Position numbers and translations under genes: made by a program
NCBI RefSeq assembly: GCF_058153355.1
Contig: NZ_CM177019.1
Direction: 5' to 3' (one strand)
DNA length: 64,000 nt
The notes under the pieces: model-generated
The model's input: the letters and a program-made list of their open reading frames with translations, nothing else
Databases searched by the model: none
Told to the model about the DNA's origin: nothing
In this document: in pieces, positions 8,543 to 20,443 of the stretch
How positions within the stretch are numbered: position 1 is the first letter of the stretch
Layout: every line of letters starts with the position of its first letter

Positions 8543-9044
8543 CCGCCCCCCTGATATTCCAGATTGCCATTTCCACTTCGCGACGGTTCATCAGTCCTTT
8601 CCATTTATGGCCTGCGGCAAACACCCAGCGGGCCATCTGGTCACGTGCTCCGGCGTAATCACCGGCATTGAGTTTTTTCAGCAGCGTTGATTTACTGAAT
8701 GCGGTAACACCGGTGTTGAAAATAAACGTTGCCAGCGCCGTTTTCTGATATGGCGTCAGCGGCACCCTGACAAGACGATCGATTGCCGCATAAACCGGTT
8801 TTAAATCACTGTCGAGGAGAGCCATACACTCCGCATGGCTGTAACGGCGCATTTCAATATCCGGCCCGGTATGTCCCACACAGACCGTAAGCACACCGGC
8901 AATATCGCGGTAAGGCAGATAAGCGATATTTTCCAGATGGATCAGAGACTGACGGGTCATTTCCTGATAACCACCCACACCGCCACCGGCAATTGTTACA
9001 GCCAGCAGTGCGGCTTTCAGTTTTTTTGGGATCTCCGCCATCAT
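8526..9044 (-). CDS. lys: Mu endolysin Lys (gp22), SAR-type lysozyme
   Basis: ORF track 172 aa, MMAEIPKKLKAALLAVTIAGGGVGGYQEM..., N-terminal signal-anchor-release helix followed by a lysozyme domain. Confidence 0.9.
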   Translation of the reverse strand: MMAEIPKKLKAALLAVTIAGGGVGGYQEMTRQSLIHLENIAYLPYRDIAGVLTVCVGHTGPDIEMRRYSHAECMALLDSDLKPVYAAIDRLVRVPLTPYQKTALATFIFNTGVTAFSKSTLLKKLNAGDYAGARDQMARWVFAAGHKWKGLMNRREVEMAIWNIRGADDLRQ

Positions 9045-9135
9045 GCTTCCCTGAAAAAATGCGCTGATGGCAGTCTAAAAAATCAGGTGACAGGTGCGGG
9101 ATTATGGTGACAGGAAATAACCGGCAGGATGCCGG
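9045..9135 (-). promoter_or_regulatory. C-lys intergenic region, expected location of C-dependent late promoter Plys
   Basis: 91-bp gap between C stop and lys start; assignment from Mu biology. Confidence 0.4.
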
Positions 9136-9558
9136 TTATTTCTGGCTTTCAGGTGAGAACAGGTCAGGCTGATGACGTCGTGTATGCAGCTTTCTCTGGC
9201 GGGCAATAATCTGGTAGATCTGCGGCTGGGACAGGCGATACTGGCGACGCAGTTCTTCCATGTTACGACCATTGAACTGGCAGTAAAGCAAATCGTCGCG
9301 TAACGCGGTCAGGATCGTATCGCCGCAGGGGATGTAAAACTGCCGCCCGCCCAGAAAACAGGACAGGGCAACGGCCTGTTTACGGGCAAGCTCACGGGGA
9401 TTGCTGACGTTCTGGCGTTTCAGTTCGTTTTCCAGAACATCAATCAGATCAACCACCGAACGGGGCCAGCGTGATTCCAGTTCCGGGGCCGGGATGTTAT
9501 CAATATGTCCGATTAACTGGCGAATTGCCGGATCGTGTTCAAATAAATCATGCTGCAT
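9136..9558 (-). CDS. C: Mu late transcription activator C
   Basis: ORF track 140 aa, MQHDLFEHDPAIRQLIGHIDNIPAPELESRWPR...; shares its C-terminal fold with Mor (..FNGRN..EL..Y). Confidence 0.9.
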   Translation of the reverse strand: MQHDLFEHDPAIRQLIGHIDNIPAPELESRWPRSVVDLIDVLENELKRQNVSNPRELARKQAVALSCFLGGRQFYIPCGDTILTALRDDLLYCQFNGRNMEELRRQYRLSQPQIYQIIARQRKLHTRRHQPDLFSPESQK

Positions 9559-9670
9559 ATTTTCCCCCGGTTAACAGACAGAAAGATACACCACGGCACT
9601 GATGGTTATCAGAACCACAAGGGCAATCACTTTTATCGCACTCATCAGCGTGGACGGACCGAAACATTCA

Positions 9671-9901
9671 TCACTGAATTTTCTGTACACAATATTTTTC
9701 CTTATAACGTTGGCAGTGGTGAAGAATTTCCGGCATATCAACCGACTGCCAGCCTTTCATGTAATAACTTCCGTGGGTGCCATCATGACCGGTATAGTCG
9801 CGGGGCGAAGGCCGTGGCCCACCGGCGACACGGTGTAAAACCTCCTGACGCAGCCGCTCACGTCTGCCAAGATGAAAGGATGCATTCCAGCCTTTACCCA
9901 T
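9671..9901 (-). CDS. Hypothetical small protein in the mor-C interval (uncertain coding)
   Basis: ORF track 76 aa; region should also hold the middle promoter Pm; overlaps a plus-strand ORF. Confidence 0.3.
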   Translation of the reverse strand: MGKGWNASFHLGRRERLRQEVLHRVAGGPRPSPRDYTGHDGTHGSYYMKGWQSVDMPEILHHCQRYKEKYCVQKIQ

Positions 9902-9978
9902 GATGATTTCCCCCGGTACGGTTATTCATCACAGGATATTGAGGACGTAAAAAAAGCCGGATTAACCGGCTTTACTGT

Positions 9979-10368
9979 TTACAGTAGTGAGGGCTGGTAC
10001 TGGCGGTATTTCAGCCGTCGCATCCGGCGAATGGCCTTGTAAACCGTATTGAAAGTGACACCATAACGGGTGGTCAGTTCGCTGACGTTGCGACCGTTAA
10101 AATCATTCCAGATACGCAAATCCCGAATCAGCGAGTCCAGAACCTGACCGCGTGGAATGTAGACCTGACCGCCGCCCAGATGCTTACAGATAGCCACAAC
10201 AATCTCCAGTGAATGGGCAGGATCAACACCCAGCCGGGACAATTCCCCGCGCAGTAAATCGTTCAGCTCCGCCAGCAGTGCCGGAAAGCGTGACGTATCC
10301 TCGGCGGGATTGTCAAGATGTGCCAGGATGGTGTCATCCTGCAAATCACCAAATAAATCTTCCGTCAT
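9979..10368 (-). CDS. mor: Mu middle operon regulator Mor
   Basis: ORF track 129 aa, MTEDLFGDLQDDTILAHLDNPAEDTSRF... Confidence 0.9.
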   Translation of the reverse strand: MTEDLFGDLQDDTILAHLDNPAEDTSRFPALLAELNDLLRGELSRLGVDPAHSLEIVVAICKHLGGGQVYIPRGQVLDSLIRDLRIWNDFNGRNVSELTTRYGVTFNTVYKAIRRMRRLKYRQYQPSLL

Positions 10369-10916
10369 TGTGCCATCCTCCGTGTCTTTCTGGCATGGGC
10401 ATAAGCCGCCGTCATGGCATCATAGCCGCGCAGTTCACGCCCGGACGGACTGACCGGCAACGGAAGCTCGTGACGGGAAAAGGCTTCACGAATACAGCGG
10501 ATGTGCCACTGCTTGAGTGTTTCGAGGACTGTCAGCAGCGTGTCGCCATGACACCACGCCAGTGTGGAAACGCCCTGTCCGCCGTTGCGTTTCGCGGTCA
10601 GGCGCTGAACATATTTATCCAGCGCCACATCACCGCCATCGGTAATAAAACCGTCTTCTGCCATCTGCTGCCAGACTTTGTATACCTTCTCGCGGGGCGT
10701 GACATGCCCCTTAAAGCGGCGACGTGGATGTTTATTCTGCTTCTTAAAGCCGCGTTCTTTCATGGCATCAATCACCTGTTCCAGTTGCGTAACCGTCAGC
10801 TCGCGGCAACTGATTTTGCCCGTTTTCTGCATCAGAAAGGCGCGGTAAGTATCGTCGCCGAGTTGTAGCTCCCGACGGGCGACATGGATTAATTTAATCA
10901 GGGATGTGCGATTCAT
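10365..10916 (-). CDS. gemA: Mu GemA
   Basis: ORF track 183 aa, MNRTSLIKLIHVARRELQLGDDTYRAFL...; immediately upstream of mor with ATGA overlap. Confidence 0.8.
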   Translation of the reverse strand: MNRTSLIKLIHVARRELQLGDDTYRAFLMQKTGKISCRELTVTQLEQVIDAMKERGFKKQNKHPRRRFKGHVTPREKVYKVWQQMAEDGFITDGGDVALDKYVQRLTAKRNGGQGVSTLAWCHGDTLLTVLETLKQWHIRCIREAFSRHELPLPVSPSGRELRGYDAMTAAYAHARKTRRMAQ

Positions 10917-10985
10917 GATCGTACCTCCGGAAAGAGGCGGTGCTGCAACACCGCCTGAATTTACACATCAATCAGAGAGGATTTT

Positions 10986-11252
10986 ATGGAAAATAATGTA
11001 CAACCTTATGATGTTGCAGGTTATGCGATTGCATCAGCACTGGTGCGCCTTCTGGTGAAGAAGGCGATCATCACCGCAGAAGAGGGCCAAGCCATTTTCA
11101 GCTCTTCAGCAGAGATTTTAAAAGATGCGCCTGCAATAAGAACAAGCCGCCGCGAAAACATGCAACTGTCAAAGATCATGGAAGACATTATCAGTTCGTT
11201 AGACCCAGATGCTGACGGATCTCAAAAGCCTCAAACACATGAGCGTCAGTAA
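10986..11252 (+). CDS. Plus-strand hypothetical protein inside the Mu early operon, antisense to the early transcript
   Basis: ORF track 88 aa; ATG preceded by GAGAGG Shine-Dalgarno 7 nt upstream; 3' end overlaps the convergent ORF 11191..11493 by 62 nt. Confidence 0.35.
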   Translation: MENNVQPYDVAGYAIASALVRLLVKKAIITAEEGQAIFSSSAEILKDAPAIRTSRRENMQLSKIMEDIISSLDPDADGSQKPQTHERQ

Positions 11253-11493
11253 CAATATCCTGGTCTGATAACCCCAGCCTGCGGCGGATGTACTCCTCGC
11301 GGGCTGTTTCATTTTGCAGTGCCACTACTGTTTCCAGACGATTCATTTCGCGGTTGATAATGTCACGGACTTCTCTGGCGGTGAGATTATGCTTAATACC
11401 ATATTCAACGATAGCGCGAACACGTTCCAGCATCCCTTTTTCAGCCATGACGTTATCAATATTAAGGGGAGTAAATTTATCTTCATTGTTCAT
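11191..11493 (-). CDS. Mu semi-essential region hypothetical protein
   Basis: ORF track 100 aa; ATGA overlap with the upstream ORF. Confidence 0.5.
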   Translation of the reverse strand: MNNEDKFTPLNIDNVMAEKGMLERVRAIVEYGIKHNLTAREVRDIINREMNRLETVVALQNETAREEYIRRRLGLSDQDIVTDAHVFEAFEIRQHLGLTN

Positions 11494-11813
11494 TTTGCGG
11501 CCCTCAGAATAAATTCAGGATAAAATTTCAGACTCATTTGCCGTAACACATCCAGTGCAGCAACGGCTGCTGATTTATCGTTGCCATCAGCAATAGCGCG
11601 GAGATTTTCAATAATCCAGTGAGGACTCAGTGACTCAGCAACAATACCGAGTCGGTACGCCATGACCTCATCAATTGCACGGTTATAAGACGGGGCGTAT
11701 ACCGCCGCCACAAAGTTACCGATCACATCTTCAGGAAAACCCGCCGCCGTCAACAACGCTGTCAGTTCCTCGGATTTTGTAAATACGCCATTATTCATTC
11801 TGTTCACCTTCAC
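11490..11813 (-). CDS. Mu semi-essential region hypothetical protein
   Basis: ORF track 107 aa. Confidence 0.55.
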   Translation of the reverse strand: MKVNRMNNGVFTKSEELTALLTAAGFPEDVIGNFVAAVYAPSYNRAIDEVMAYRLGIVAESLSPHWIIENLRAIADGNDKSAAVAALDVLRQMSLKFYPEFILRAAK

Positions 11814-11982
11814 AATTCATGCACGCCGTGTCATCGCCCATATCGCAGTGGTTGCATTTCTGCCCGCCACAATGGGGACACTCTTTCAGATATTCAGGGG
11901 ATTCATTACCGCAGGTCGGGCATTCCTGTTTCACCGTGGTGAATTTCCCCAGCCACGAATACGATGTTTCATTGTTTTCCAT
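11791..11982 (-). CDS. Mu semi-essential region small zinc-ribbon protein
   Basis: Track ORF 11791..12054; internal start MENNETSYSW at 11982 has a GGAGG Shine-Dalgarno; CPTCG...CPHCGGQKCNHC...CMNC cysteine clusters. Confidence 0.5.
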   Translation of the reverse strand: MENNETSYSWLGKFTTVKQECPTCGNESPEYLKECPHCGGQKCNHCDMGDDTACMNCEGEQNE

Positions 11983-12520
11983 TGTTTGCCTCCGCCTGCT
12001 CCAGTGCCATAACTGGTGCGTCAGAACAGTCAAGAATGAGATAGCGCAGTACATGGTCGGTGATATTCCATGCGCTTGAGCTGCAAATAAAACGCCCCAG
12101 CCGGATATCGATATAAGCCATCACAAAACGGGGCATTCCCTGTTTGCACATCTCGTCATCCACTTCTGCAACGATGTGAACGGATTCACAGGTCAGTACG
12201 CCTGTCGCAAACTCTTTTGCCAGCGCGGGGATAGTATTACCTTCCACCCAGGGTAATGAGCGACGCCAGTTGCACCACACCGCATCATCAACGGCAGGCT
12301 GCTCAGTTGCGTTTCGTCTTACAGGCGGCGTCGGACGCGGGCGCGGAACGTCATAAAATCCGTTGCATTCGGTGAGCACTCCGGCATCAACCGCATCCCG
12401 CAGGAAATACACCATTGACGAGGGCAGCATCTTCATTTTTTCAGCCAGAACCCCGCAGGTCAGACGCCCGTAAGCCAGTAATAATGTGCTGACCCCATTC
12501 AGAACTTTTGCATCAATCAC
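11969..12520 (-). CDS. Mu semi-essential region hypothetical protein
   Basis: ORF track 183 aa. Confidence 0.55.
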   Translation of the reverse strand: MIDAKVLNGVSTLLLAYGRLTCGVLAEKMKMLPSSMVYFLRDAVDAGVLTECNGFYDVPRPRPTPPVRRNATEQPAVDDAVWCNWRRSLPWVEGNTIPALAKEFATGVLTCESVHIVAEVDDEMCKQGMPRFVMAYIDIRLGRFICSSSAWNITDHVLRYLILDCSDAPVMALEQAEANNGKQ

Positions 12521-12523
12521 CGG

Positions 12524-13078
12524 TTATTCCTCCGTCAGTGCCACAAATTCAGAATGTTTAATACGCTGGCATTCGGAGGGAACTGGTCCTTTAACCTCAC
12601 CGTCCAGAAGGCGCACCTCAAACAAAATGCCGAATCCATCACGGGTGTGGTGCATCTCCCAGAGCGATTTGAAATCCCACATATTGGGTATGACATCAAC
12701 CCCAAGTTCATTGCACAGCCAGCCCGGAAAATCCGGGTATTTACCGAGCTGATTTTCATAGCCCCGGATAAGCTCCGCGTGTTCCCGGCCTGCTGGTGTT
12801 GTCATATCCGGCATCGCTGCCCATAACTGAATATCACCAATAAAAAGTGTCCTTGATTTAATCTCCCATCCTTCCGGTGGTAAACGGTTAAACCAGACAC
12901 GCGTAACCCTCTCAGGCCCTTTGTCACCAGACAAAAACACACCGCTTGCTTTCACTGATTGCTGTAATGACGCAATAATCTCACCACGCTTAACAGAAAC
13001 CTCTTTCAGCCAGCGAATCGTATAACCGTTAGCGGCTGCGTCACTCAGTTTAAAATAAGCACATGCTTTCATTTTCAT
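12524..13078 (-). CDS. Mu semi-essential region hypothetical protein
   Basis: ORF track 184 aa. Confidence 0.55.
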   Translation of the reverse strand: MKMKACAYFKLSDAAANGYTIRWLKEVSVKRGEIIASLQQSVKASGVFLSGDKGPERVTRVWFNRLPPEGWEIKSRTLFIGDIQLWAAMPDMTTPAGREHAELIRGYENQLGKYPDFPGWLCNELGVDVIPNMWDFKSLWEMHHTRDGFGILFEVRLLDGEVKGPVPSECQRIKHSEFVALTEE

Positions 13079-13169
13079 TCTCTCCGGTTCTGATTAAGGC
13101 GCGAGTCGTCCCCTGACGCATCGCGCCATAATTAAACGAATGTGAATTAATTAAATATTAATGGTGGTA

Positions 13170-13694
13170 TTAAATACCGGCTTCCTGTTCAAACGGAATA
13201 ATGGAAAAATCTTCAATTCCCGATTTAACTGTAATTCCGGCAACACCTGCGACCGCTTTCGGTTCCAGTAAAATCGCTTCCTTGTTGATTTCCTGCTTCG
13301 TGCGAATAAAGCGTTGCAGGCCAAGACGCTCCAGCGTTTCCATCACTGCATCCATACCACGAATACTTACTGATGGTGGACGGACCCGCCACGATACATC
13401 ACCGGTGACAAGATTTGCCGTTTTCACTTTGCCGCCGTTTGTCAGTTCGTCGCGGTTCGCTTCACACCATCCCTGAACGCCTTTTGAAAGGGTTTCAATA
13501 TCGGTTTTAATCGGTGCAATCCGGGCTGCAAATTTCTCCGTAATTTCCGCGATGGCATCATTCATTTCCGTTTCCAGACGTGATGCTTCGCGCTGTAAGT
13601 CCCCGATGCGTTTAATATCGGTAATCACCGCATCGCGGTTTTGTGGCACATAAGCCGCTGCGGCACTTTTGATACGTTTTGCTGGTTTAGCCAT
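13170..13694 (-). CDS. gam: Mu Gam, DNA-end-binding host nuclease inhibitor (Ku-like)
   Basis: ORF track 174 aa, MAKPAKRIKSAAAAYVPQNRDAVITDIKRIGDLQREASRLETEMNDAIAEI... Confidence 0.9.
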   Translation of the reverse strand: MAKPAKRIKSAAAAYVPQNRDAVITDIKRIGDLQREASRLETEMNDAIAEITEKFAARIAPIKTDIETLSKGVQGWCEANRDELTNGGKVKTANLVTGDVSWRVRPPSVSIRGMDAVMETLERLGLQRFIRTKQEINKEAILLEPKAVAGVAGITVKSGIEDFSIIPFEQEAGI

Positions 13695-13713
13695 AAATTA
13701 AAGCTCCTGTTAA

Positions 13714-14013
13714 TTAATATCCGCTGTATACAATGCTGGATACAGCTCGATTGCTTAATTCCATCTTTCGGGCAATGACATGAATATCCAGCCCTTCTTT
13801 ATAAAGTTCACGACATAAATATTTGTCGTGTTCACTGATTCGGTATACACACAATGATATTCCGTGCCTTCTGGCATGTGCCCGGAGGGCGGTTGTGGCG
13901 ACTTTCAGTTTTTCCGCCATTTCTTCAACGGTCATTTTCCCGACGTTGGCTTCGATAAATTCCCGGTCTTCGCGTGACCAGCGCTTACGATTACACTTCA
14001 TGTCAGCCACCAT
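13714..14013 (-). CDS. Mu early region hypothetical protein with a putative helix-turn-helix
   Basis: ORF track 99 aa; segment MTVEEMAEKLKVATTALRAHARRHGISL resembles an HTH. Confidence 0.55.
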   Translation of the reverse strand: MVADMKCNRKRWSREDREFIEANVGKMTVEEMAEKLKVATTALRAHARRHGISLCVYRISEHDKYLCRELYKEGLDIHVIARKMELSNRAVSSIVYSGY

Positions 14014-14433
14014 TCAGTACAGCAGAGGCTCGCGCAGTGATGCCGGAATATGCCGCAGCGATAACTGAACCGCTTTCAGGGCAAGCGAGGAATAACAGCA
14101 GCGCGCCCGGCCTTTTGCCATTAACCGGTAATCGCGCCAGATACGCTGCCACATTTCACGGGCTTCAGGGTCTGATGCGCAGATGTATTCCCGGTCCATG
14201 ACGTACTCCCATAAATCCACGTTGAACGCACCGCCAAATGCAATGGCGCGGGATATGCTTTCGCCGCAATAACGCGCACAGATGCTGTAATGGTCGAAAG
14301 CAATCAGGTAAGTCTTTTCACCACAATCATCAACTTTCCGGGCGTAAATAAATCCGCGTAATTCACCACCGTTGTTATTGCGTCCCTGAATTCGGATTAA
14401 TGCCTGAATTTCATTTCGGATTTTGACGTTCAT
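14014..14433 (-). CDS. Mu early region hypothetical protein
   Basis: ORF track 139 aa. Confidence 0.55.
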   Translation of the reverse strand: MNVKIRNEIQALIRIQGRNNNGGELRGFIYARKVDDCGEKTYLIAFDHYSICARYCGESISRAIAFGGAFNVDLWEYVMDREYICASDPEAREMWQRIWRDYRLMAKGRARCCYSSLALKAVQLSLRHIPASLREPLLY

Positions 14434-14453
14434 TGTCAGCGCTCCTTTGCGAA

Positions 14454-14723
14454 TTAATGTTTAACCGCATTCACCGGATGTGGTACTAAATCACATTCAG
14501 CCTCCATACCCACTTTCTTCATAGTGGTCAGCATCTCATCTTTGGCCTTTTTAATAATTTCAGGAGCCATAGTCAGGACGATATTTGCCAGTAAATCATG
14601 AGGCCCGGTATTTTCCGTTGGCGAGATATCTGCAAGACATGCTTTTGCATCCAGAACTTCTCTGCGCCCATTGCAACCTTCACAACTTTCCAGCCATGTA
14701 AACTCAAAGATAACTTTTGCCAT
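14454..14723 (-). CDS. Mu early region hypothetical protein
   Basis: ORF track 89 aa, cysteine-containing (CEGCNGRRE). Confidence 0.5.
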   Translation of the reverse strand: MAKVIFEFTWLESCEGCNGRREVLDAKACLADISPTENTGPHDLLANIVLTMAPEIIKKAKDEMLTTMKKVGMEAECDLVPHPVNAVKH

Positions 14724-14734
14724 TTTGTTTCCCC

Positions 14735-14989
14735 TTATTGATTCTGAATAACTGCGCTGGCTTTTACCTTCGCGCCTTTTACCTGCTTAAAGAAAACCGC
14801 GCTGCACCACGGACAACATGCAAAGGAGTCCCATACTTCATTTTCTGGTGAGCATTGCGTCATAATTTGCTCTTTGCACTTGGGGCAATTAAATGCAGTC
14901 AGAGCCACATTGTTATTCTGTACCCGTTTAACCCATTCAATATATTTTCCAGCTTTAGTACACATCGTTATCTCCAGATAATCTGGCAA
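14735..14989 (-). CDS. Mu early region small zinc-finger-like protein
   Basis: ORF track 84 aa with CPKC and CCPWC motifs. Confidence 0.5.
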
Positions 14990-15195
14990 CCATTAAGACG
15001 GGCCGTCCATACAGAACGGGCCACCCCGGACTTATGCTCCATAATTCTGACCGCGTTTTTTACCAGTTCCACCGGTGGGTAAGTGATTTCAAGAATCGGA
15101 CGCGCCACGCCGAGATATGATTCATTTACATGACTCCCGCGCGCCTGTAACCAGTTCTGCGCATCCGTTGCCATTTTTATATTTCGGGCCATCAT
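14968..15195 (-). CDS. kil: Mu Kil-position protein (first gene after B)
   Basis: ORF track 75 aa immediately downstream of B; assignment by position and size. Confidence 0.5.
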
Positions 15196-15210
15196 AATTT
15201 CTTCTCCTTC

Positions 15211-16149
15211 TTAATTACGCAGCAGCGTTAAAATATCAACGTCCAGGTCTAATTCACGGAAAGCCTGACGCAGATAATCTTCGTTAACACGCTCACCTTT
15301 ACCATGAGCCGTCATGGCGGCAAGGCGAAGCGAATGATTCAGAATGCGAAGCGCACCGGGTTTCTGTGCAATTTGCTGTAACAACTCCAGTTCTTTTTCG
15401 CCGTTAATATGCCAGGCATCCGCAATAGCTTTTACATCGGCTTTTTTGGTTTTATTAATTGCAGTGGGCTTTGCAATACGGGAAAACAGACGGGCAAATT
15501 CAACCGTTCTGTTGCCCCCCGTCATATTTGAATAAACGCGGTGATTGCCCATCAGCACAAGGCCAGTGCGGGTTGATTCCTGTAACAGGCGGAGTTCTTC
15601 CAGAGCTTCAGCACCAAGATGATCAGCTTCGTCGATGATAACCAGCCCCTGTGTACCTTCAAGGCGGCGTCGCAGGGCGCGGGAGAGCGGCCCTTTACGG
15701 CGTGGTGCGTCATTCATTCCCAGCTCAAACGCCAGTTCAGTAAGACATTCCAGAACGCTGGCACAGGATGGCGTAATGGTGATCATCCAGACATTGTTAT
15801 TGGTGCGGCGATATTCACGGGCCGCTTCGGTTTTGCCCACACCAGGATTGCCACATACAACAGCAATACTTTCAGTCAGGCTGGCAAAACGCATACTTGT
15901 CCAGATTTGTTTTACCGTCTGCGTTTCCACAAAGCGGGGCGGTTCCGGTAGTTCTGCGACTGCATGATATTTTTCCAACCAGCGTTGCAGTATTTGTGCA
16001 ACACGTTCGTTATCCCCGTTGTACTTATCATTGATAAAACTACTGATAGTCCCGGTAGAAAGTCCGCTCTCAAGGGCAATTTGTTTAAAGGTGGTTTCTT
16101 CATTTTCTACAAGGGTGCGCAGTCCTGCGCGAATATCTGAAATATTCAT
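15211..16149 (-). CDS. B: Mu transposition ATPase / target DNA activator MuB
   Basis: ORF track 312 aa, MNISDIRAGLRTLVENEETTFKQIALESGLS..., Walker A GNPGVGKTE. Confidence 0.95.
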   Translation of the reverse strand: MNISDIRAGLRTLVENEETTFKQIALESGLSTGTISSFINDKYNGDNERVAQILQRWLEKYHAVAELPEPPRFVETQTVKQIWTSMRFASLTESIAVVCGNPGVGKTEAAREYRRTNNNVWMITITPSCASVLECLTELAFELGMNDAPRRKGPLSRALRRRLEGTQGLVIIDEADHLGAEALEELRLLQESTRTGLVLMGNHRVYSNMTGGNRTVEFARLFSRIAKPTAINKTKKADVKAIADAWHINGEKELELLQQIAQKPGALRILNHSLRLAAMTAHGKGERVNEDYLRQAFRELDLDVDILTLLRN

Positions 16150-16187
16150 CTGAATAACCTCGTAATTAAATTTTGTTAAAACGTTAA

Positions 16188-18179
16188 TTAAATGACTTTT
16201 TTACGTCTGTTCTGTTCCAGAATATCCAGCGAATGATTCAGATATTCATCACGCTCAGTTTCGTATTCATCATCACGCTCCTGATTCTTCACCCGTTCCG
16301 TATTACCGGAAGGCCGGAAAATGCTTACAATTCGTGATTCTGGTGCTTCAGGTTCGGCTATCTGCGGCAGCAGCTCTGCCACTTCCAGTGCATCCATTTG
16401 TTTCTGTGCCTTAATCGCTGCTTTCGTCGCAGATTTCAGTTGTTTCTGGCGGCGGCGATATTCACGGCCTGCCGCAGCATCATTAAACGCAACAGGTGCC
16501 AGACATTCCGCTTCACAGATAAACCGACCGTCCAGGGTGTAGCAATAAACCGTGCTGTGTAACTGCTGTGGATCAAATCTGACCACAACTTTTTTCACTC
16601 CGGCATTCATTAACGCCATGTTGTAATAAACGTTTTTCGCGCCTTTAAGGGAGCCGCCAACTTTAAGCGCGAACTCGCCTTTACGTGAAACGTTCACCGC
16701 CTCGGCAGGCAGTAACAGCATCCGTTTTTGCTCTTCGGTAGGCTTACGCACAATCGTTCTGGCGTATTCACGCTCAAAAACGTCATCAAACGAAAGTTTG
16801 CCCCCGCACATTTCTGTTTCTCGGCCTGTTCTGGCATTGAACATCGCCACACCTTCGGCAAGGGTTTTCAGAAACAGCTCTGCATCAACAGCGCGGTCGC
16901 CATAGTTATCAGGTTTTGCCTGCGGATTAGGCCCCGTATATGCGCCAGCCAGTGCCGGATGTTTATCAACGTATTCCTCAAGGCCACCAACACCGAAAGC
17001 ACGTTCTACAGGTTTTGCCTGGCCCCAGCCTTTACCGGCAACAACGCTTGTCCAGTGCATGGTCGCCCCCATCAGTAAAAACAGCCCCTTTGGATCGTCC
17101 TCTTTCACCTTAAAGCGGTAGCGATTGGGCGCGCCCCCCGTCAGCCATTTATTCGCAGCACCACGGGTGTTATCAATGGTGATGTGAAAATCCTCCGGGA
17201 TGCCGTAGCGTGTCACTACATCCATGAACGAGAGGCGAATTGAATCGATGTTCTCGCTAACATCGCAGCGCCAGCCCAGAATTTTTCGGGTTTTCACATC
17301 CTGCCAGAACCATGTTTTCGGGCGGATCACATCACCGTTAAACCAGCGTACAAAGACGTTATGCAGATAACCGTCGCCGTTGATCCACTGCATGGCGTCC
17401 AGGTGTTCCACAGTTCGTTGCTGTGCCGGTATCAGATGCATCAGTGCATGTTCACCTTCACGGCAGGCAACAACCATTGCCCCGTCCAGTTGCTGAATCC
17501 GGCGAAATGCCGTGGCTCGGGAGGGAATACTCCAGCCATGCTCGCGGGCTGCCAGTTCCAGACGCTCATAACATTTGCGGAAGGCGGGTTTTTCCGGTCG
17601 CAGATAATCTGCAATCAGAAACTGCCAGGCATCCTCGTCAAATTCACTTTTGTGAACATTGCGACGGGATGCTCCACGTCCATCAACAAGTGCAGCCGCC
17701 CAGTCAGGCTTCGCAAACTTCTGTACCTGGTAATACTTGTCCCGCAAAGTGGATGCGCTGACCTGGTAATGCCCTGCAACGGTCGCAAAAGCCGTTTTCG
17801 TTGAAATCCCCTGGTTCAGCATTTCGTCTGCAGCCTGAACCGCAGGCAACCATTTTTCAGCAAGTCTGCGCTGGGAATCGCTGGCGTTATCCCATTTGCT
17901 CCACAGTGCCTCACGATCATAATCATGGGCTTCCAGCGTGGGGCGGGCGATTTCAAAATACCCCTGACTTGTTTCAATCTCTCCTTGTCTCAGCAATAAC
18001 GCCGCTTTCGCTTCAACAGGTAAAGAGTTCGCATTGTATTCAATTGCTTTACCACCTTTGACACCTGCTCTAGTGCGGTTTTGCCATCCTTGCTTTTTAG
18101 CAACATAAATCACACCAGCCGATGTTTTCGGCAAACCAGGAAGATTCGCACACTCTTTCGGTGATACCCAAAGTTCCAT
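16188..18179 (-). CDS. A: Mu transposase MuA
   Basis: Track ORF 666 aa; canonical 663-aa MuA begins at [23 protein letters not shown] (ATG at 18179). Confidence 0.95.
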
Positions 18180-18180
18180 G

Positions 18181-18408
18181 TTATTCACCTGCTTGATATC
18201 GGCTAGGCCAGATTACTTCCGGTTTAGTTTCTAAGGCGTTAGCAATAATCTGCTCACCCTTTGGCCAGTGTCGTTCTAGCGCATTAGCTAATGTAGTTGG
18301 CGCATAACCGAACTGCCGGGAAAGAGCTGATAAAGAGAGCTTTCTTTTCTTAAGTCCCGCAATCACATCCGCTCGATGCCAATCACGGGCCTTTTCGTTG
18401 GAACACAT
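18181..18408 (-). CDS. ner: Mu Ner, early-transcription negative regulator
   Basis: ORF track 75 aa, [36 protein letters not shown]... Confidence 0.9.
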
Positions 18409-18577
18409 TTAAAAACCCTCCTAAGTTTTGTAATCTATAAAGTTAGCAATTTAACTAAGTGTAAAAACTTAGCTAGCTTGCTAAAAAGATAATTACTGAA
18501 AAGCTTTTTGTAAAGTTACTTTTTAGTAAATTTCTTTGATTACTGATTAATGCATTGATAAATAAGGGGTTTAAATT
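18409..18577. promoter_or_regulatory. Mu early operator/promoter region (O1-O3, divergent Pe and Pc, Ner and IHF sites, transposition enhancer)
   Basis: AT-rich divergent intergenic region between c and ner with repeated CTTTT/AAGT-type repressor half-sites. Confidence 0.7.
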
Positions 18578-19168
18578 TTGAAAAGTAACTTTATAGAAAA
18601 AGACGATACTGAAAAGTCAATTTGGTGTTCGCCGCAAGAAATTATGGCTGCTGATGGTATGCCTGGATCTGTTGCTGGTGTTCACTATCGAGCAAATGTT
18701 CAAGGCTGGACGAAGCGAAAAAAGGAAGGTGTCAAGGGGGGGAAAGCTGTTGAATACGATGTGATGTCTATGCCCACCAAAGAACGAGAGCAAGTTATTG
18801 CGCACTTGGGGTTATCCACACCGGATACTGGTGTTCAAGCCAATGAGAAACAGGATTCTTCGGAACTGATAAACAAATTAACCACAACCTTAATCAATAT
18901 GATTGAAGAGCTGGAACCAGATGAAGCACGCAAGGCACTGAAACTTTTAAGTAAAGGGGGGTTGTTGGCGTTAATGCCTCTTGTATTTAATGAACAGAAA
19001 CTTTACAGCTTTATAGGATTTTCACAGCAAAGTATTCAGACGTTGATGATGTTAGATGCATTACCTGAAGAAAAACGCAAAGAGATTTTGTCAAAGTATG
19101 GGATTCATGAACAGGAAAGTGTTGTAGTACCTTCACAGGAACCACAGGAGGTAAAAAAAGCCGTATAA
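18578..19168 (+). CDS. c: Mu repressor c
   Basis: ORF track 196 aa, MKSNFIEKDDTEKSIWCSPQEIMAADGMPGSVAGVHYRANVQGW... Confidence 0.95.
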   Translation: MKSNFIEKDDTEKSIWCSPQEIMAADGMPGSVAGVHYRANVQGWTKRKKEGVKGGKAVEYDVMSMPTKEREQVIAHLGLSTPDTGVQANEKQDSSELINKLTTTLINMIEELEPDEARKALKLLSKGGLLALMPLVFNEQKLYSFIGFSQQSIQTLMMLDALPEEKRKEILSKYGIHEQESVVVPSQEPQEVKKAV

Positions 19169-19319
19169 CAACCATGAACCAGCTAAAACATACTTCACCT
19201 CACATAATCACACATGTAACATACCTAAACGGCATAAGCTGATTTGTGATATGAGTCATTTGGTGACAGCCTGGTTGTTATCGGTTTTGAACGTTTTTTG
19301 AAGCTGTTATTGAAATGAT

Positions 19320-19506
19320 TTGCAGTGTTTTTGTTTTTCGTATTTTGAATGAAACAAAAGCAATTTTTTACTATCTTTCGCGTTTCATTGATTAACGACT
19401 AAAATTTGCGCTACAGGCTTGCAAGCCCCACCAAATCTAATCCCATCAGATCCCGAATAATCCAATGTCCTCCCGGTTTTTTTCGTACTTCAAGTGAATC
19501 AATACA
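19320..19506. repeat. Mu left end (attL) with transposase binding sites L1-L3; terminus at 19506
   Basis: Sequence ...cccggtttttttcgtacttcaagtgaatcaataca is the reverse complement of the canonical Mu left terminus. Confidence 0.85.
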
Positions 19507-19540
19507 CCGGGTATGTCGTTATTCAATAAAGGTGCCTCGT

Positions 19541-20443
19541 ATGCAAATCACCAACATGCATTGCAGTGGACAAACCGTTTCACTTGCCGCGGGGGATTAT
19601 CACGCGACTATCGTGACGGTTGGTGCTGGTCTGGCTGAATTAACTTTTCAGGGTTGTCATTTAGTCATCCCGCACAAACCCGAAGAGATGCCGCTGGCGC
19701 ATCTGGGTAAAGTGCTTATTCCGTGGCCGAACCGGATCGCCAACGGCTGTTACCGCTATCAGGGACAGGAATATCAGTTACCCATTAATGAACATAGTTC
19801 AAAAGCCGCTATTCACGGGCTGCTTGCCTGGCGAGACTGGCAAATTAGCGAATTAACCGCCACCAGCGTTACCCTGACAGCTTTTCTACCGCCCAGTTAC
19901 GGCTATCCGTTTATGCTGGCTTCGCAGGTTGTTTATTCGCTCAATGCTCGCACGGGCCTTTCCGTTGAGATCGCAAGCCAGAATATTGGTACTGTGACCG
20001 CACCTTATGGTGTGGGTATTCATCCTTATTTAACCTGCAACTTAACATCTGTTGATGACTATCTTTTCCAGCTTCCGGCAGAACAGGTTTATGCCGTCGA
20101 TGAGCACGCAAATCCGACAACGCTTCACCACGTTGATGAGCTGAATTTAAATTTCACGCGGGCGACAAAAATAGCCGCGACAAAAATAGACCATACCTTT
20201 AAAACCGCTAATGATCTGTGGGAAATGACCATTACCCATCCACAGCAGGCGCTGTCGGTGAGTCTTTGTTCCGATCAACCCTGGGTGCAGGTTTATAGCG
20301 GCGAAAAATTACAGCGTCAGGGACTGGCAGTTGAACCTATGAGTTGCCCGCCTAACGCCTTTAATTCAGGTATCGACTTATTATTACTGGAACCAGGAAA
20401 AACGCACCGCCTGTTTTTTAATATTCACGGGCAGCACAATTAA
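19541..20443 (+). CDS. yihR: Aldose 1-epimerase family protein (sulfoquinovose mutarotase YihR-like)
   Basis: ORF track 19406..20443; the Mu end at 19506 lies inside that ORF, so the ATG at 19541 with AAAGG Shine-Dalgarno is used; GIHPYL epimerase-type motif; synteny with yihQPO. Confidence 0.8.
   Translation: MQITNMHCSGQTVSLAAGDYHATIVTVGAGLAELTFQGCHLVIPHKPEEMPLAHLGKVLIPWPNRIANGCYRYQGQEYQLPINEHSSKAAIHGLLAWRDWQISELTATSVTLTAFLPPSYGYPFMLASQVVYSLNARTGLSVEIASQNIGTVTAPYGVGIHPYLTCNLTSVDDYLFQLPAEQVYAVDEHANPTTLHHVDELNLNFTRATKIAATKIDHTFKTANDLWEMTITHPQQALSVSLCSDQPWVQVYSGEKLQRQGLAVEPMSCPPNAFNSGIDLLLLEPGKTHRLFFNIHGQHN

What the first reader, a model, noticed from the sequence alone, without database searches (positions are those of the whole stretch)
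11191..15195. Mu semi-essential early region: about ten small proteins of unknown function, including zinc-ribbon and HTH candidates
Between B and gemA only gam has a defined function. The other ORFs include two Cys4 zinc-ribbon-like proteins (14735..14989 and 11791..11982), an HTH-like 99-aa protein (13714..14013), and two roughly 184-aa proteins (12524..13078 and 11969..12520) with no motif I can place. Early-expressed accessory regions of transposable phages are where host-takeover and anti-defence functions tend to sit.
Basis: partly seen in the sequence, partly recalled or inferred. Interest (0 to 1): 0.45.

Follow-up and report, generated by a model that had tools for sequence, protein, structure and literature searches.

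The report
Mu-like prophage semi-essential early genes
This stretch is the long-known "semi-essential early" gene block of a Mu-type transposable prophage in an Escherichia chromosome: eleven real, tightly packed small genes, of which only kil and gam have known roles. It is an ordinary new mosaic of genes already present in public Mu-like phage genomes.

Summary
The ORFs are real and lie at the stated coordinates, on the minus strand between transposition gene B and gemA. They form the semi-essential early (SEE/SE) region of a Muvirus prophage whose left end sits between host genes yihS and yihR. There are eleven genes: kil, gp6, a gp7-slot gene, gp8, gp9, gam, a 184-aa ORF, gp11, gp13, a 107-aa ORF and gp14. 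All are intact in eight related phages and prophages where present, have dN/dS of 0.1-0.45, and most have Shine-Dalgarno motifs.

Three are not canonical Mu genes. The gp7 slot holds a D108-like allele. The 184-aa ORF is a divergent DUF5420 relative. The 107-aa ORF is absent from Mu. Mu gp12 is missing.

New inferences:
- gp11 has a likely winged-helix N-terminal domain, a disordered linker and the Pfam Gp11_C domain.
- gp9 is probably a tandem helix-turn-helix protein.
- gp6 and gp13 carry conserved CxxC pairs, two in gp6 and four in gp13.
- The DUF5420 relative gives a confident AlphaFold model with no relative among solved structures.

No function beyond kil and gam could be assigned, and nothing matches known defence families. 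In 31 IMG/VR Mu-like loci, kil, gam, gemA and mor are near-universal, gp9, gp11, gp8 and gp7 are common, and the rest are sporadic cassettes. The region is already described in the literature as largely of unknown function.

The parts
14968..15195 (-). kil (75 aa), first gene after B
   Evidence: 100% identical to Mu Kil. PHROG 2743, E 3e-43. Present in 31 of 31 surveyed Mu-like loci. Mu kil expression gives spherical cells (PMC3961180).
   Evidence: 98% identical to SfMu and 77% to Mu gp6. CPxC...CPWC is conserved between alleles. Zinc-ribbon Pfam hits are only sub-threshold, 16 bits against a cutoff of 23.8. GGAG sits before the ATG. Other Mu-likes hold unrelated proteins in this slot.
14454..14723 (-). 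gp7-slot gene (89 aa), not the Mu allele
   Evidence: No BLASTP match to Mu gp7. 98% identical to E. coli 20AH011 and 42% to D108 gp7. Same PHROG 2230 as D108 gp7. dN/dS 0.27-0.42.
14014..14433 (-). gp8/E7 (139 aa), unknown function
   Evidence: 93% identical to Mu gp8. PHROG 3690. No Pfam, NCBIfam or PDB match. The family is confined to E. coli and Salmonella Mu-likes. Present in 19 of 31 loci.
13714..14013 (-). gp9/E8 (99 aa), probable tandem helix-turn-helix DNA-binding protein; its start abuts the gp8 stop
   Evidence: PHROG 323 'transcriptional regulator, D5-like', E 7e-29. Two sets of weak HTH hits, at residues ~9-53 and ~64-98. Weak match to PDB 2lvs, E 0.043. Present in 25 of 31 loci.
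13170..13694 (-). gam (174 aa), Ku-like dsDNA-end-binding host-nuclease inhibitor
   Evidence: 100% identical to Mu Gam. Pfam PF07352, 144 bits against a cutoff of 28.
12524..13078 (-). 184-aa ORF (182 aa from the second ATG), divergent DUF5420-family protein; absent from Mu and D108
11969..12520 (-). gp11 (183 aa): N-terminal winged-helix-like domain, Pro-rich linker, Gp11_C domain; its last 18 aa derive from the gp12 C-terminus
11791..11982 (-). gp13 (63 aa), four CxxC pairs; overlaps the gp11 stop by 14 nt
   Evidence: 97% identical to Mu gp13. PHROG 5584. Fused to a 170-aa N-terminal domain in another prophage, PHROG 6418. Pfam zinc hits are sub-threshold.
11490..11813 (-). 107-aa ORF (102 aa from ATG 11798); absent from Mu, D108 and Tongde
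   Evidence: PHROG 1988. 98% identical to YpM_3 and 20AH011, and 80% to SfMu. ~40% identical homologues lie just upstream of gemA in more distant Mu-likes.
11191..11493 (-). gp14 (100 aa), helical, unknown function; ATGA overlap with the upstream ORF
   Evidence: 99% identical to Mu gp14. PHROG 6075. D108 carries a 36% identical allele.
15211..16149 (-). context: transposition ATPase B, upstream boundary
   Evidence: 98% identical to MuB.
10365..10916 (-). context: gemA, downstream boundary
   Evidence: 96% identical to Mu GemA.
9953..9973 (-). context: predicted intrinsic terminator just after mor, the likely end of the early operon
   Evidence: 8-bp stem with 5 GC pairs plus a T-run. No promoter or terminator excess inside the region.

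Best explanation
Shown. This is the distal, non-essential part of the early (Pe) operon of a Mu-type transposable prophage. Eleven co-oriented, closely packed genes lie between B and gemA. There is no internal promoter or terminator signal above chance, and a strong predicted terminator follows mor.

Two products are identical to proteins with known roles. Gam is a Ku-like protein that binds double-stranded DNA ends and protects them from host exonuclease. Kil kills the host and rounds the cells.

Inferred. The other nine are small accessory proteins made at the start of lytic growth, and at low level in lysogens. They condition the host and boost replicative transposition.
- gp9 (tandem HTH) and gp11 (winged helix plus Gp11_C) most likely act by binding nucleic acid or by docking on host DNA-handling proteins.
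- gp6 and gp13 are most likely small zinc-stabilised proteins that bind and inhibit or redirect host factors.
- gp8, gp14, the DUF5420 relative and the 107-aa protein have no predictable activity.

The block consists of a conserved backbone (kil, gp9, gam, gemA, mor, and often gp7, gp8 and gp11) interrupted by exchangeable cassette slots (gp6; gp7 alleles; DUF5420 or gp12; gp13; the 107-aa ORF; gp14). This is the pattern expected of genes that interact with variable host or competitor factors.
For: - Synteny with and identity to Mu, SfMu, D108 and the Yersinia Mu-like phages.
- Purifying selection and intact reading frames. Shine-Dalgarno motifs and start/stop coupling.
- A terminator only after mor.
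- Gam and Gp11_C Pfam hits above their cutoffs. PHROG assignments.
- gp9 HTH hits.
- CxxC pairs conserved between diverged gp6 alleles and retained in a gp13 fusion protein.
- Literature. [quoted passage not shown] DNA between B and C amplifies Mu replication (PMC10052514). Deleting the SE region restores host viability after MuBam infection (PMC3325207). SE genes are transcribed at low level in lysogens and are 'largely unknown' (PMC3820752).
- Core-versus-cassette pattern in 8 annotated genomes and 31 IMG/VR loci.
Against: - No biochemical function could be derived for any of the nine unassigned ORFs.
- All HTH and zinc-ribbon Pfam hits are below their gathering thresholds.
- The gp11 model is only of moderate confidence (mean pLDDT 63; N-terminal domain 65-73).
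- The confident DUF5420-relative model has no informative structural neighbour.
- Operon structure rests on pattern scans and analogy with Mu, not on transcript data for this prophage.
- Cassette variability is also what neutral phage mosaicism produces.
Confidence: 0.8

Rival explanations
1. The unassigned ORFs, especially those in the variable slots (gp6, gp7, DUF5420/gp12, the 107-aa ORF), are dedicated counter-defence genes. They would inhibit restriction, abortive-infection or other immune systems, much like the anti-CRISPR and anti-quorum-sensing genes of Pseudomonas Mu-like phages.
For: - The genes are expressed early.
- At least three unrelated proteins occupy the gp6 slot, and there are three diverged gp7 alleles.
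- One alternative gp6-slot occupant falls in PHROG 1518, 'host nuclease inhibitor'.
- dN/dS is higher for the cassette genes (0.3-0.45) than for B, gam and kil (0.1 or less).
- The families are taxonomically very narrow.
Against: - No homology to any characterised inhibitor was found.
- PHROG places none of the window's unassigned ORFs in the host-takeover category.
- The PHROG 1518 name may be transitive from Gam fusion proteins.
- No anti-defence HMM library was available, so this was not tested directly.
- gp8, gp9 and gp11 are backbone genes rather than variable ones.
Confidence: 0.3
2. The ORFs mainly serve the phage's own DNA transactions. They would be the molecular basis of the genetically mapped arm (amplified replication of Mu) and cim (control of immunity) functions. 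For example, gp9 and gp11 might bind Mu DNA or the transpososome.
For: - Functions between B and C amplify mini-Mu replication (PMC10052514).
- arm and cim are listed in this interval (PMC4553209).
- gp9 and gp11 are predicted DNA-binding proteins and belong to the conserved backbone.
Against: - No ORF-level assignment of arm or cim was found in the searchable literature.
- No binding sites were identified.
- Winged-helix and HTH domains also mediate protein-protein contacts.
Confidence: 0.35
3. The ORFs are lysogen-benefit genes (morons). Low-level Pe transcription in the prophage would produce proteins that protect or otherwise help the host, for instance by superinfection exclusion or defence against other phages.
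For: Basal Pe/Pe* transcription covers the SE genes in lysogens, and the authors speculate about a host benefit (PMC3820752).
Against: - No PADLOC defence model matches any ORF at a meaningful level.
- SE expression is toxic rather than beneficial after infection.
- The genes lack their own promoters.
Confidence: 0.1
4. Some or all of the small ORFs are non-functional remnants or annotation artefacts in a decaying prophage.
For: Many are short and lack any domain match. The plus-strand gp15 ORF next to the region could not be shown to be coding.
Against: - All eleven ORFs are intact in every relative that carries them, with dN/dS well below 1.
- They have ribosome-binding sites.
- The same genes occur in plaque-forming phages: Mu, SfMu, D108 and the Yersinia phages.
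Confidence: 0.03

Closest known systems
Semi-essential early (SEE/SE) region of Escherichia phage Mu (NC_000929, about 4.3-8.2 kb: kil, gp6-gp9, gam, gp11-gp14)
   Same: Same position between B and gemA, same strand and same order. Kil and Gam are 100% identical. gp9, gp14 and gp13 are 97-99% identical, gp8 is 93%, gp11 is 92% and gp6 is 77%.
   Different: The gp7 slot holds a protein with no BLASTP similarity to Mu gp7. gp12 is absent, and only its last 18 codons survive, fused to gp11. A 184-aa DUF5420 relative is inserted after gam, and a 107-aa ORF is inserted before gp14. Only 72% of the DNA aligns to Mu.
Yersinia phages vB_YpM_3 / vB_YpM_23 (MT374852, MT374856), all genes annotated 'hypothetical'
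   Same: Best overall match: 96.8% identity over 93% of the region. They carry the 184-aa ORF (93%), the 183-aa gp11 form (95%) and the 107-aa ORF (98%).
   Different: They carry Mu-type gp6 and gp7 alleles, and they lack the 274-bp gp14-gemA spacer that holds gp15.
Shigella phage SfMu (NC_027382)
   Same: Same gp6 allele (98%). It has a 184-aa ORF annotated 'DUF5420 family protein' (70%) and the 107-aa ORF (80%). The SfMu paper already notes that ORF11 and ORF14 have no Mu or D108 homologues.
   Different: Mu-type gp7. It retains most of the gp12 sequence (96% over 89%, unannotated). gp9 is only 85% identical.
Pfam DUF5420 (PF17457), for the 184-aa ORF
   Same: A profile built from the ORF and its relatives retrieves proteins that hit PF17457 (13 of 21 alignment members). 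They share the motifs YFK, PD.R..EG and a C-terminal IKxSEF[IV]ALTEE. Some lie directly after gam in other Mu-likes.
   Different: The window protein itself gives no PF17457 hit at E up to 1. The family has no known function, and no paper in the searchable library mentions it.
Early accessory genes of other temperate phages, by function only. Examples are the lambda pL-operon kil and gam, and (from my own knowledge, not tested here) Pseudomonas Mu-like phage accessory genes such as Tip, Aqs1 and the anti-CRISPR loci.
   Same: Small, early-expressed, dispensable, host-directed proteins in a mosaic block.
   Different: There is no sequence relationship. Mu kil is unrelated to the lambda and Rac kil genes and gives round rather than filamentous cells (PMC3961180). 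Mu Gam is Ku-like (PMC3820752); that it is not a lambda Gam homologue is from my own knowledge.

Membership tests
Mu-type semi-essential early region (Muvirus) | Lies between transposition gene B and gemA/mor on the same strand as A and B | tested here: met
   B is at 15211-16149, gemA at 10365-10916 and mor at 9979-10368, all on the minus strand and 96-99% identical to Mu.
Mu-type semi-essential early region (Muvirus) | Contains kil directly after B and gam in mid-region | tested here: met
   Kil and Gam are 100% identical to Mu. Both are present in 31 of 31 surveyed loci.
Mu-type semi-essential early region (Muvirus) | Part of one early transcription unit that ends after mor | tested here: inconclusive
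   Pattern scan only. There is a strong terminator-like hairpin at 9973-9953 and no excess of internal sites. No transcript data are available.
Mu-type semi-essential early region (Muvirus) | Dispensable for plaque formation but improves growth | not testable with these tools
   Known for Mu from the literature. Not testable for this prophage.
Pfam Phage_Mu_Gam (PF07352) | Score above the gathering threshold | tested here: met
   144.1 bits against a cutoff of 28.3.
Pfam Gp11_C (PF25754) | Score above the gathering threshold | tested here: met
   136.2 bits against a cutoff of 27, residues 90-166 of the 183-aa ORF.
Pfam DUF5420 (PF17457), 184-aa ORF | Direct hit of the protein to the family HMM | tested here: not met
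   No family at E up to 1 for the window protein, nor at E up to 0.1 for the SfMu homologue.
Pfam DUF5420 (PF17457), 184-aa ORF | Homology to bona fide members through a profile | tested here: met
   The profile search finds P0039-P0049 at E 2e-7 to 8e-4 over the full length. 13 of 21 alignment members hit PF17457. Precomputed PF17457 hits exist on these proteins.
Zinc ribbon (gp6, gp13) | Paired CxxC knuckles conserved among homologues | tested here: met
   In gp6, C27/C30 and C52/C55 are conserved between alleles that are 77% identical. In gp13, all four CxxC pairs are kept in every homologue and in a 231-aa fusion protein.
Zinc ribbon (gp6, gp13) | Pfam zinc-ribbon model above its gathering threshold; metal binding | tested here: not met
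   Best scores are 16.2 bits (cutoff 23.8) for gp6 and 19.2 bits (cutoff 32.7) for gp13. Zinc content is not testable here.
Helix-turn-helix DNA-binding protein (gp9) | Significant match to an HTH family profile | tested here: inconclusive
   PHROG 323 'transcriptional regulator, D5-like' at E 7e-29. All Pfam and NCBIfam HTH hits are below their cutoffs. PDB 2lvs at E 0.043. The two halves show no BLASTP self-similarity.
Winged-helix domain (gp11 N-terminus) | Structural similarity to solved winged-helix domains | tested here: inconclusive
Known anti-phage defence systems (PADLOC-DB) | Match to any defence-system protein model | tested here: not met
   The only hit is a 14-bit match of gp9 to mad1 at E 0.0099.
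Kil 'septation inhibitor' (PHROG 2743 name) | Blocks septation or FtsZ as the lambda and Rac Kil proteins do | not testable with these tools
   Sequence membership in PHROG 2743 is met at E 3e-43. The literature says Mu kil is unrelated to the lambda and Rac kil genes and produces spherical cells, so the functional label is doubtful.

The most novel reading that the evidence does not exclude
At least one of the cassette genes would be a host-factor or immune-system inhibitor that works by a mechanism not yet described. The candidates are the gp6 zinc-ribbon protein, the gp7-slot protein, the DUF5420 relative, whose confidently predicted fold has no relative among solved structures, and the 107-aa protein. 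On this reading the B-gemA interval of enterobacterial Mu-like phages would be a counter-defence or host-takeover locus, comparable to the accessory loci of Pseudomonas Mu-like phages.
Probability: 0.3. Interest if true: 0.6.

Novelty: already known. Interest (0 to 1): 0.25.

Why it matters
The Mu semi-essential early region has been an acknowledged blind spot since the 1980s. Phenotypes such as arm and cim, and the toxicity beyond kil, were mapped to it but never tied to genes.

This work adds a gene-by-gene map for one more prophage and separates backbone genes from exchangeable cassettes. It also gives three structural leads: a winged helix in gp11, a tandem HTH in gp9, and an orphan fold for the DUF5420 relative. 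These leads help decide which ORFs to test first.

It does not reveal a new kind of system. Every gene has a 93-100% identical counterpart already deposited in a public phage or E. coli genome.

Tried and rejected
1. Domain searches of all ORFs against Pfam, NCBIfam and PADLOC. Only Gam and Gp11_C passed their thresholds.

2. PDB sequence searches with single sequences and with profiles, for gp8, gp9, gp11, gp14, the gp7-slot protein, the 184-aa ORF and the 107-aa ORF. Nothing was significant.

4. The idea that the 184-aa ORF is a diverged gp12, because the two are largely mutually exclusive across genomes. BLASTP finds nothing, and hhalign gives 4.6% probability. Rejected as unsupported.

5. 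The idea that the gp7-slot protein is a Mu gp7 homologue. There is no BLASTP alignment and the PHROGs differ (2230 versus 10252). It is instead related to D108 gp7.

6. An Rfam scan of 9000-20000 found no credible RNA family.

7. Genomic context of distant DUF5420 members, looking for a constant partner. Some follow gam in Mu-likes, but others sit in unrelated early regions, so there is no consistent partner.

8. Literature searches for any ORF-level function or for DUF5420. Nothing turned up beyond statements that the region is largely unknown. Several hits were false matches to 'phage mutants'.

9. The coding status of gp15 versus a 55-aa ORF on the operon strand. There are too few substitutions to decide.

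Full report
**1. What is there**

ORF listing shows an unbroken series of minus-strand ORFs from 15195 down to 11191, flanked by a 312-aa ORF at 15211-16149 and a 183-aa ORF at 10365-10916. Megablast of the interval finds only Muvirus phages:
- Yersinia phages vB_YpM_3/23: 96.8% identity over 93%.
- SfMu: 90.5% over 93%.
- Mu: 95.4% over only 72%.
- D108: 91.5% over 71%.

Protein comparison with the annotated Mu genome identifies the flanks as B (98%) and GemA (96%), followed by Mor and C. The prophage's left end is at about 19507, between the host genes yihS and yihR of an Escherichia chromosome. The Mu-type repressor and ner lie at 18181-19168.

**2. Gene map, in the direction of transcription on the minus strand**

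| Gene | Coordinates | Size | Identity and notes |
|---|---|---|---|
| kil | 14968-15195 | 75 aa | 100% identical to Mu Kil |
| gp6 | 14735-14965 | 76 aa | 77% to Mu, 98% to SfMu |
| gp7-slot gene | 14454-14723 | 89 aa | No similarity to Mu gp7; 42% to D108 gp7; 98% to an E. coli prophage |
| gp8 | 14014-14433 | 139 aa | 93% to Mu |
| gp9 | 13714-14013 | 99 aa | 99% to Mu |
| gam | 13170-13694 | 174 aa | 100% to Mu |
| 184-aa ORF | 12524-13078 | 184 aa | Absent from Mu and D108 |
| gp11 | 11969-12520 | 183 aa | 92% to Mu; its last 18 residues come from the end of Mu gp12, which is otherwise missing |
| gp13 | 11791-11982 | 63 aa | 97% to Mu |
| 107-aa ORF | 11490-11813 | 107 aa | Absent from Mu, D108 and Tongde |
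| gp14 | 11191-11493 | 100 aa | 99% to Mu |

The ATG at 14965 has a GGAG six bases upstream and is the Mu-annotated start.

**3. Are the ORFs real genes?**

Yes.
- Every ORF is intact in each of the eight related phages and prophages that carries it.
- Pairwise dN/dS is 0.1 or less for B, kil and gam, about 0.2 for gp11, gp13 and gemA, and 0.3-0.45 for gp6, the gp7-slot gene, gp8, the 184-aa ORF and the 107-aa ORF.
- Nearly all starts have a Shine-Dalgarno motif, or they abut or overlap the preceding stop: gp8/gp9 TGAATG, the gp11/gp13 14-nt overlap, and ATGA before gp14.
- A pattern scan finds no excess of promoter-like or terminator-like sites inside the block. It finds one strong hairpin with a T-run just after mor, at 9973-9953.

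**4. What can be said about each product**

*Gam and Kil.* Gam passes Pfam PF07352 by a wide margin. Kil belongs to PHROG 2743. The PHROG label 'septation inhibition' is doubtful for Mu. The literature states that Mu kil is unrelated to the lambda and Rac kil genes and gives spherical cells (PMC3961180).

*gp11.* It carries Pfam Gp11_C (136 bits). An AlphaFold model built on a 21-sequence alignment has three parts:
- a three-helix N-terminal domain (pLDDT 65-73);
- a disordered Pro-rich linker (residues 54-88);
- a better-defined C-terminal alpha/beta domain (pLDDT 78-90).

*gp9.* It hits PHROG 323 ('transcriptional regulator, D5-like') at E 7e-29. It also gives two clusters of sub-threshold HTH hits, at residues ~9-53 and ~64-98, including NCBIfam Cbp1 and the PDB entry 2lvs. 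From memory, 2lvs is an archaeal multi-HTH CRISPR-repeat-binding protein. I infer a tandem HTH. The two halves show no BLASTP self-similarity.

*gp6 and gp13.* gp6 keeps CPxC...CPWC across alleles that are 77% identical. gp13 has four CxxC pairs, which are kept even where the module is fused to a 170-aa N-terminal domain. All Pfam zinc-ribbon hits are below threshold.

*The 184-aa ORF.*
- The family is tiny: 10 clusters in the 5.8-billion-sequence set and 15 representatives among 1.84 billion proteins.
- It shares the motifs YFK, PD.R..EG and a C-terminal IKxSEF[IV]ALTEE.
- 13 of 21 aligned members hit Pfam DUF5420, but the window protein does not.
- Its AlphaFold model is confident, with pLDDT 92.5 and pTM 0.82.
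- Distant members follow gam in other Mu-likes, but they also occur in unrelated phage or element early regions.

*gp8, gp14, the gp7-slot protein and the 107-aa protein.* None has an informative match in Pfam, NCBIfam, PADLOC or PDB sequences.

**5. Conserved versus variable members**

Across eight annotated genomes, kil, gp8, gp9, gam, gp11 and gp13 are always present. The other positions vary:
- gp14 is present in all eight but is a 36%-identical allele in D108.
- The gp6 slot holds three unrelated proteins in different genomes.
- The gp7 slot holds three alleles or families.
- The DUF5420 relative and gp12 largely exclude each other.
- The 107-aa ORF and the gp15-containing spacer are present or absent.

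In 31 IMG/VR Mu-like loci that contain both B and gemA (found by searching with Gam), the counts are as follows:

| Gene | Loci (of 31) |
|---|---|
| kil | 31 |
| gam | 31 |
| mor | 30 |
| gp9 | 25 |
| gp11 | 21 |
| gp8 | 19 |
| gp7, window/D108 type | 17 |
| gp7, Mu type | 8 |
| 107-aa ORF | 10 |
| DUF5420 relative | 7 |
| gp6 | 6 |
| gp14 | 6 |
| gp13 | 3 |
| gp12 | 1 |

The B-to-gemA distance ranges from 1.6 to 4.5 kb, and the window's 4.3 kb is near the top of that range. In 5,426 complete E. coli genomes, gp8 is found in 55, the 107-aa ORF in 19, and a full-length copy of the 184-aa ORF in only 5.

**6. Literature**

[quoted passage not shown] Deleting it raises host viability after MuBam infection from about 20% to 100% (PMC3325207).
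- Its genes' functions 'are largely unknown', and they are transcribed at low level in lysogens (PMC3820752).
[quoted passage not shown] - DNA between B and C amplifies Mu replication, the arm function (PMC10052514).
- The SfMu paper already reports that its ORF11 and ORF14, the counterparts of the 184-aa and 107-aa ORFs, have no Mu or D108 homologues.
- No paper in the searchable library mentions DUF5420.

Equally, the region's status as uncharacterised is itself well known.

**7. Most likely mode of action**

Shown: this is the distal part of the Mu-type early operon. It contains an end-protecting Gam and a host-killing Kil identical to those of Mu.

Inferred: the remaining nine proteins are early accessory factors.
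- gp9 and gp11 probably bind nucleic acid.
- gp6 and gp13 are probably small zinc-stabilised binders of host proteins.
- Four proteins have no predictable activity.

The split between backbone and cassettes, the narrow taxonomic range and the somewhat relaxed constraint on the cassette genes are all compatible with host-directed or competitor-directed roles. They are also what ordinary phage mosaicism produces. A dedicated counter-defence role, a role in Mu's own replication or immunity control (arm, cim), and a lysogen-benefit role remain open. The junk-ORF reading is excluded.

**8. Verdict**

The feature is an already described kind of region, and every gene has near-identical copies in public genomes. 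The specific cassette combination is not matched end-to-end by any record searched. The best coverage is 93% in phages and 86% in complete E. coli genomes, which is ordinary mosaic variation. Interest is low to moderate. The most useful leads are the orphan-fold DUF5420 relative and the predicted DNA-binding pair gp9 and gp11.

Noticed in passing
window 9560-9980: Between mor and C, the Mu gene E19 (a 120-aa hydrophobic protein) is missing. E18-like (9671-9901) and gp20-like (9571-9741) ORFs remain. None of the seven other annotated relatives fetched (loci L003-L009) has E19 either.
   Followed up: partly
window 10917-11190 (gp14-gemA spacer); gp15 at 10986-11252 (+); 55-aa ORF at 11021-11188 (-): The 274-bp spacer carries the annotated plus-strand gp15 (PHROG 8747). 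It also carries a 55-aa ORF on the operon strand that starts 2 nt after the gp14 stop. Substitutions are too few to tell which, if either, is coding. The whole spacer is absent from YpM_3 and one E. coli prophage, and it is 98-99.6% conserved where present.
   Followed up: partly
L008:5579-5860 (E. coli 30602_1#64 Mu-like prophage), the slot equivalent to window 14735-14965: In this relative the gp6 slot holds an unrelated 93-aa protein of PHROG 1518, labelled 'host nuclease inhibitor'. The same domain is fused to Gam in PHROG 18351, so the label may be transitive.
   Followed up: no
window ~19507: The prophage left end lies in the yihS-yihR intergenic region of the sulfoquinovose catabolism cluster. 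The host flank is 98.2% identical to a minority of E. coli genomes and 90-95% identical to most, which suggests a divergent Escherichia lineage.
   Followed up: partly
window 12524-13078: 219 of 5,426 complete E. coli genomes have a partial DNA match at 90-95% identity to the 184-aa ORF, but only 5 have a full-length one. This is probably a conserved segment shared with DUF5420 genes of other Mu-like prophages. One such copy, 37% identical at the protein level, lies in a Mu-like phage inserted in an Stx2c phage record.
   Followed up: no
window 14968-15195: The database label 'Kil protein for bacterial septation inhibition' (PHROG and RefSeq) conflicts with the literature. Mu kil is unrelated to the lambda and Rac kil genes and makes cells spherical.
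   Followed up: yes
window 11969-12022 (3' end of gp11): The last 18 codons of gp11 match the 3' end of Mu gp12. This looks like a deletion or cassette-exchange scar that preserves the ribosome-binding site and the overlapping start of gp13. The same 183-aa form occurs in YpM_3 and Tongde.
   Followed up: partly
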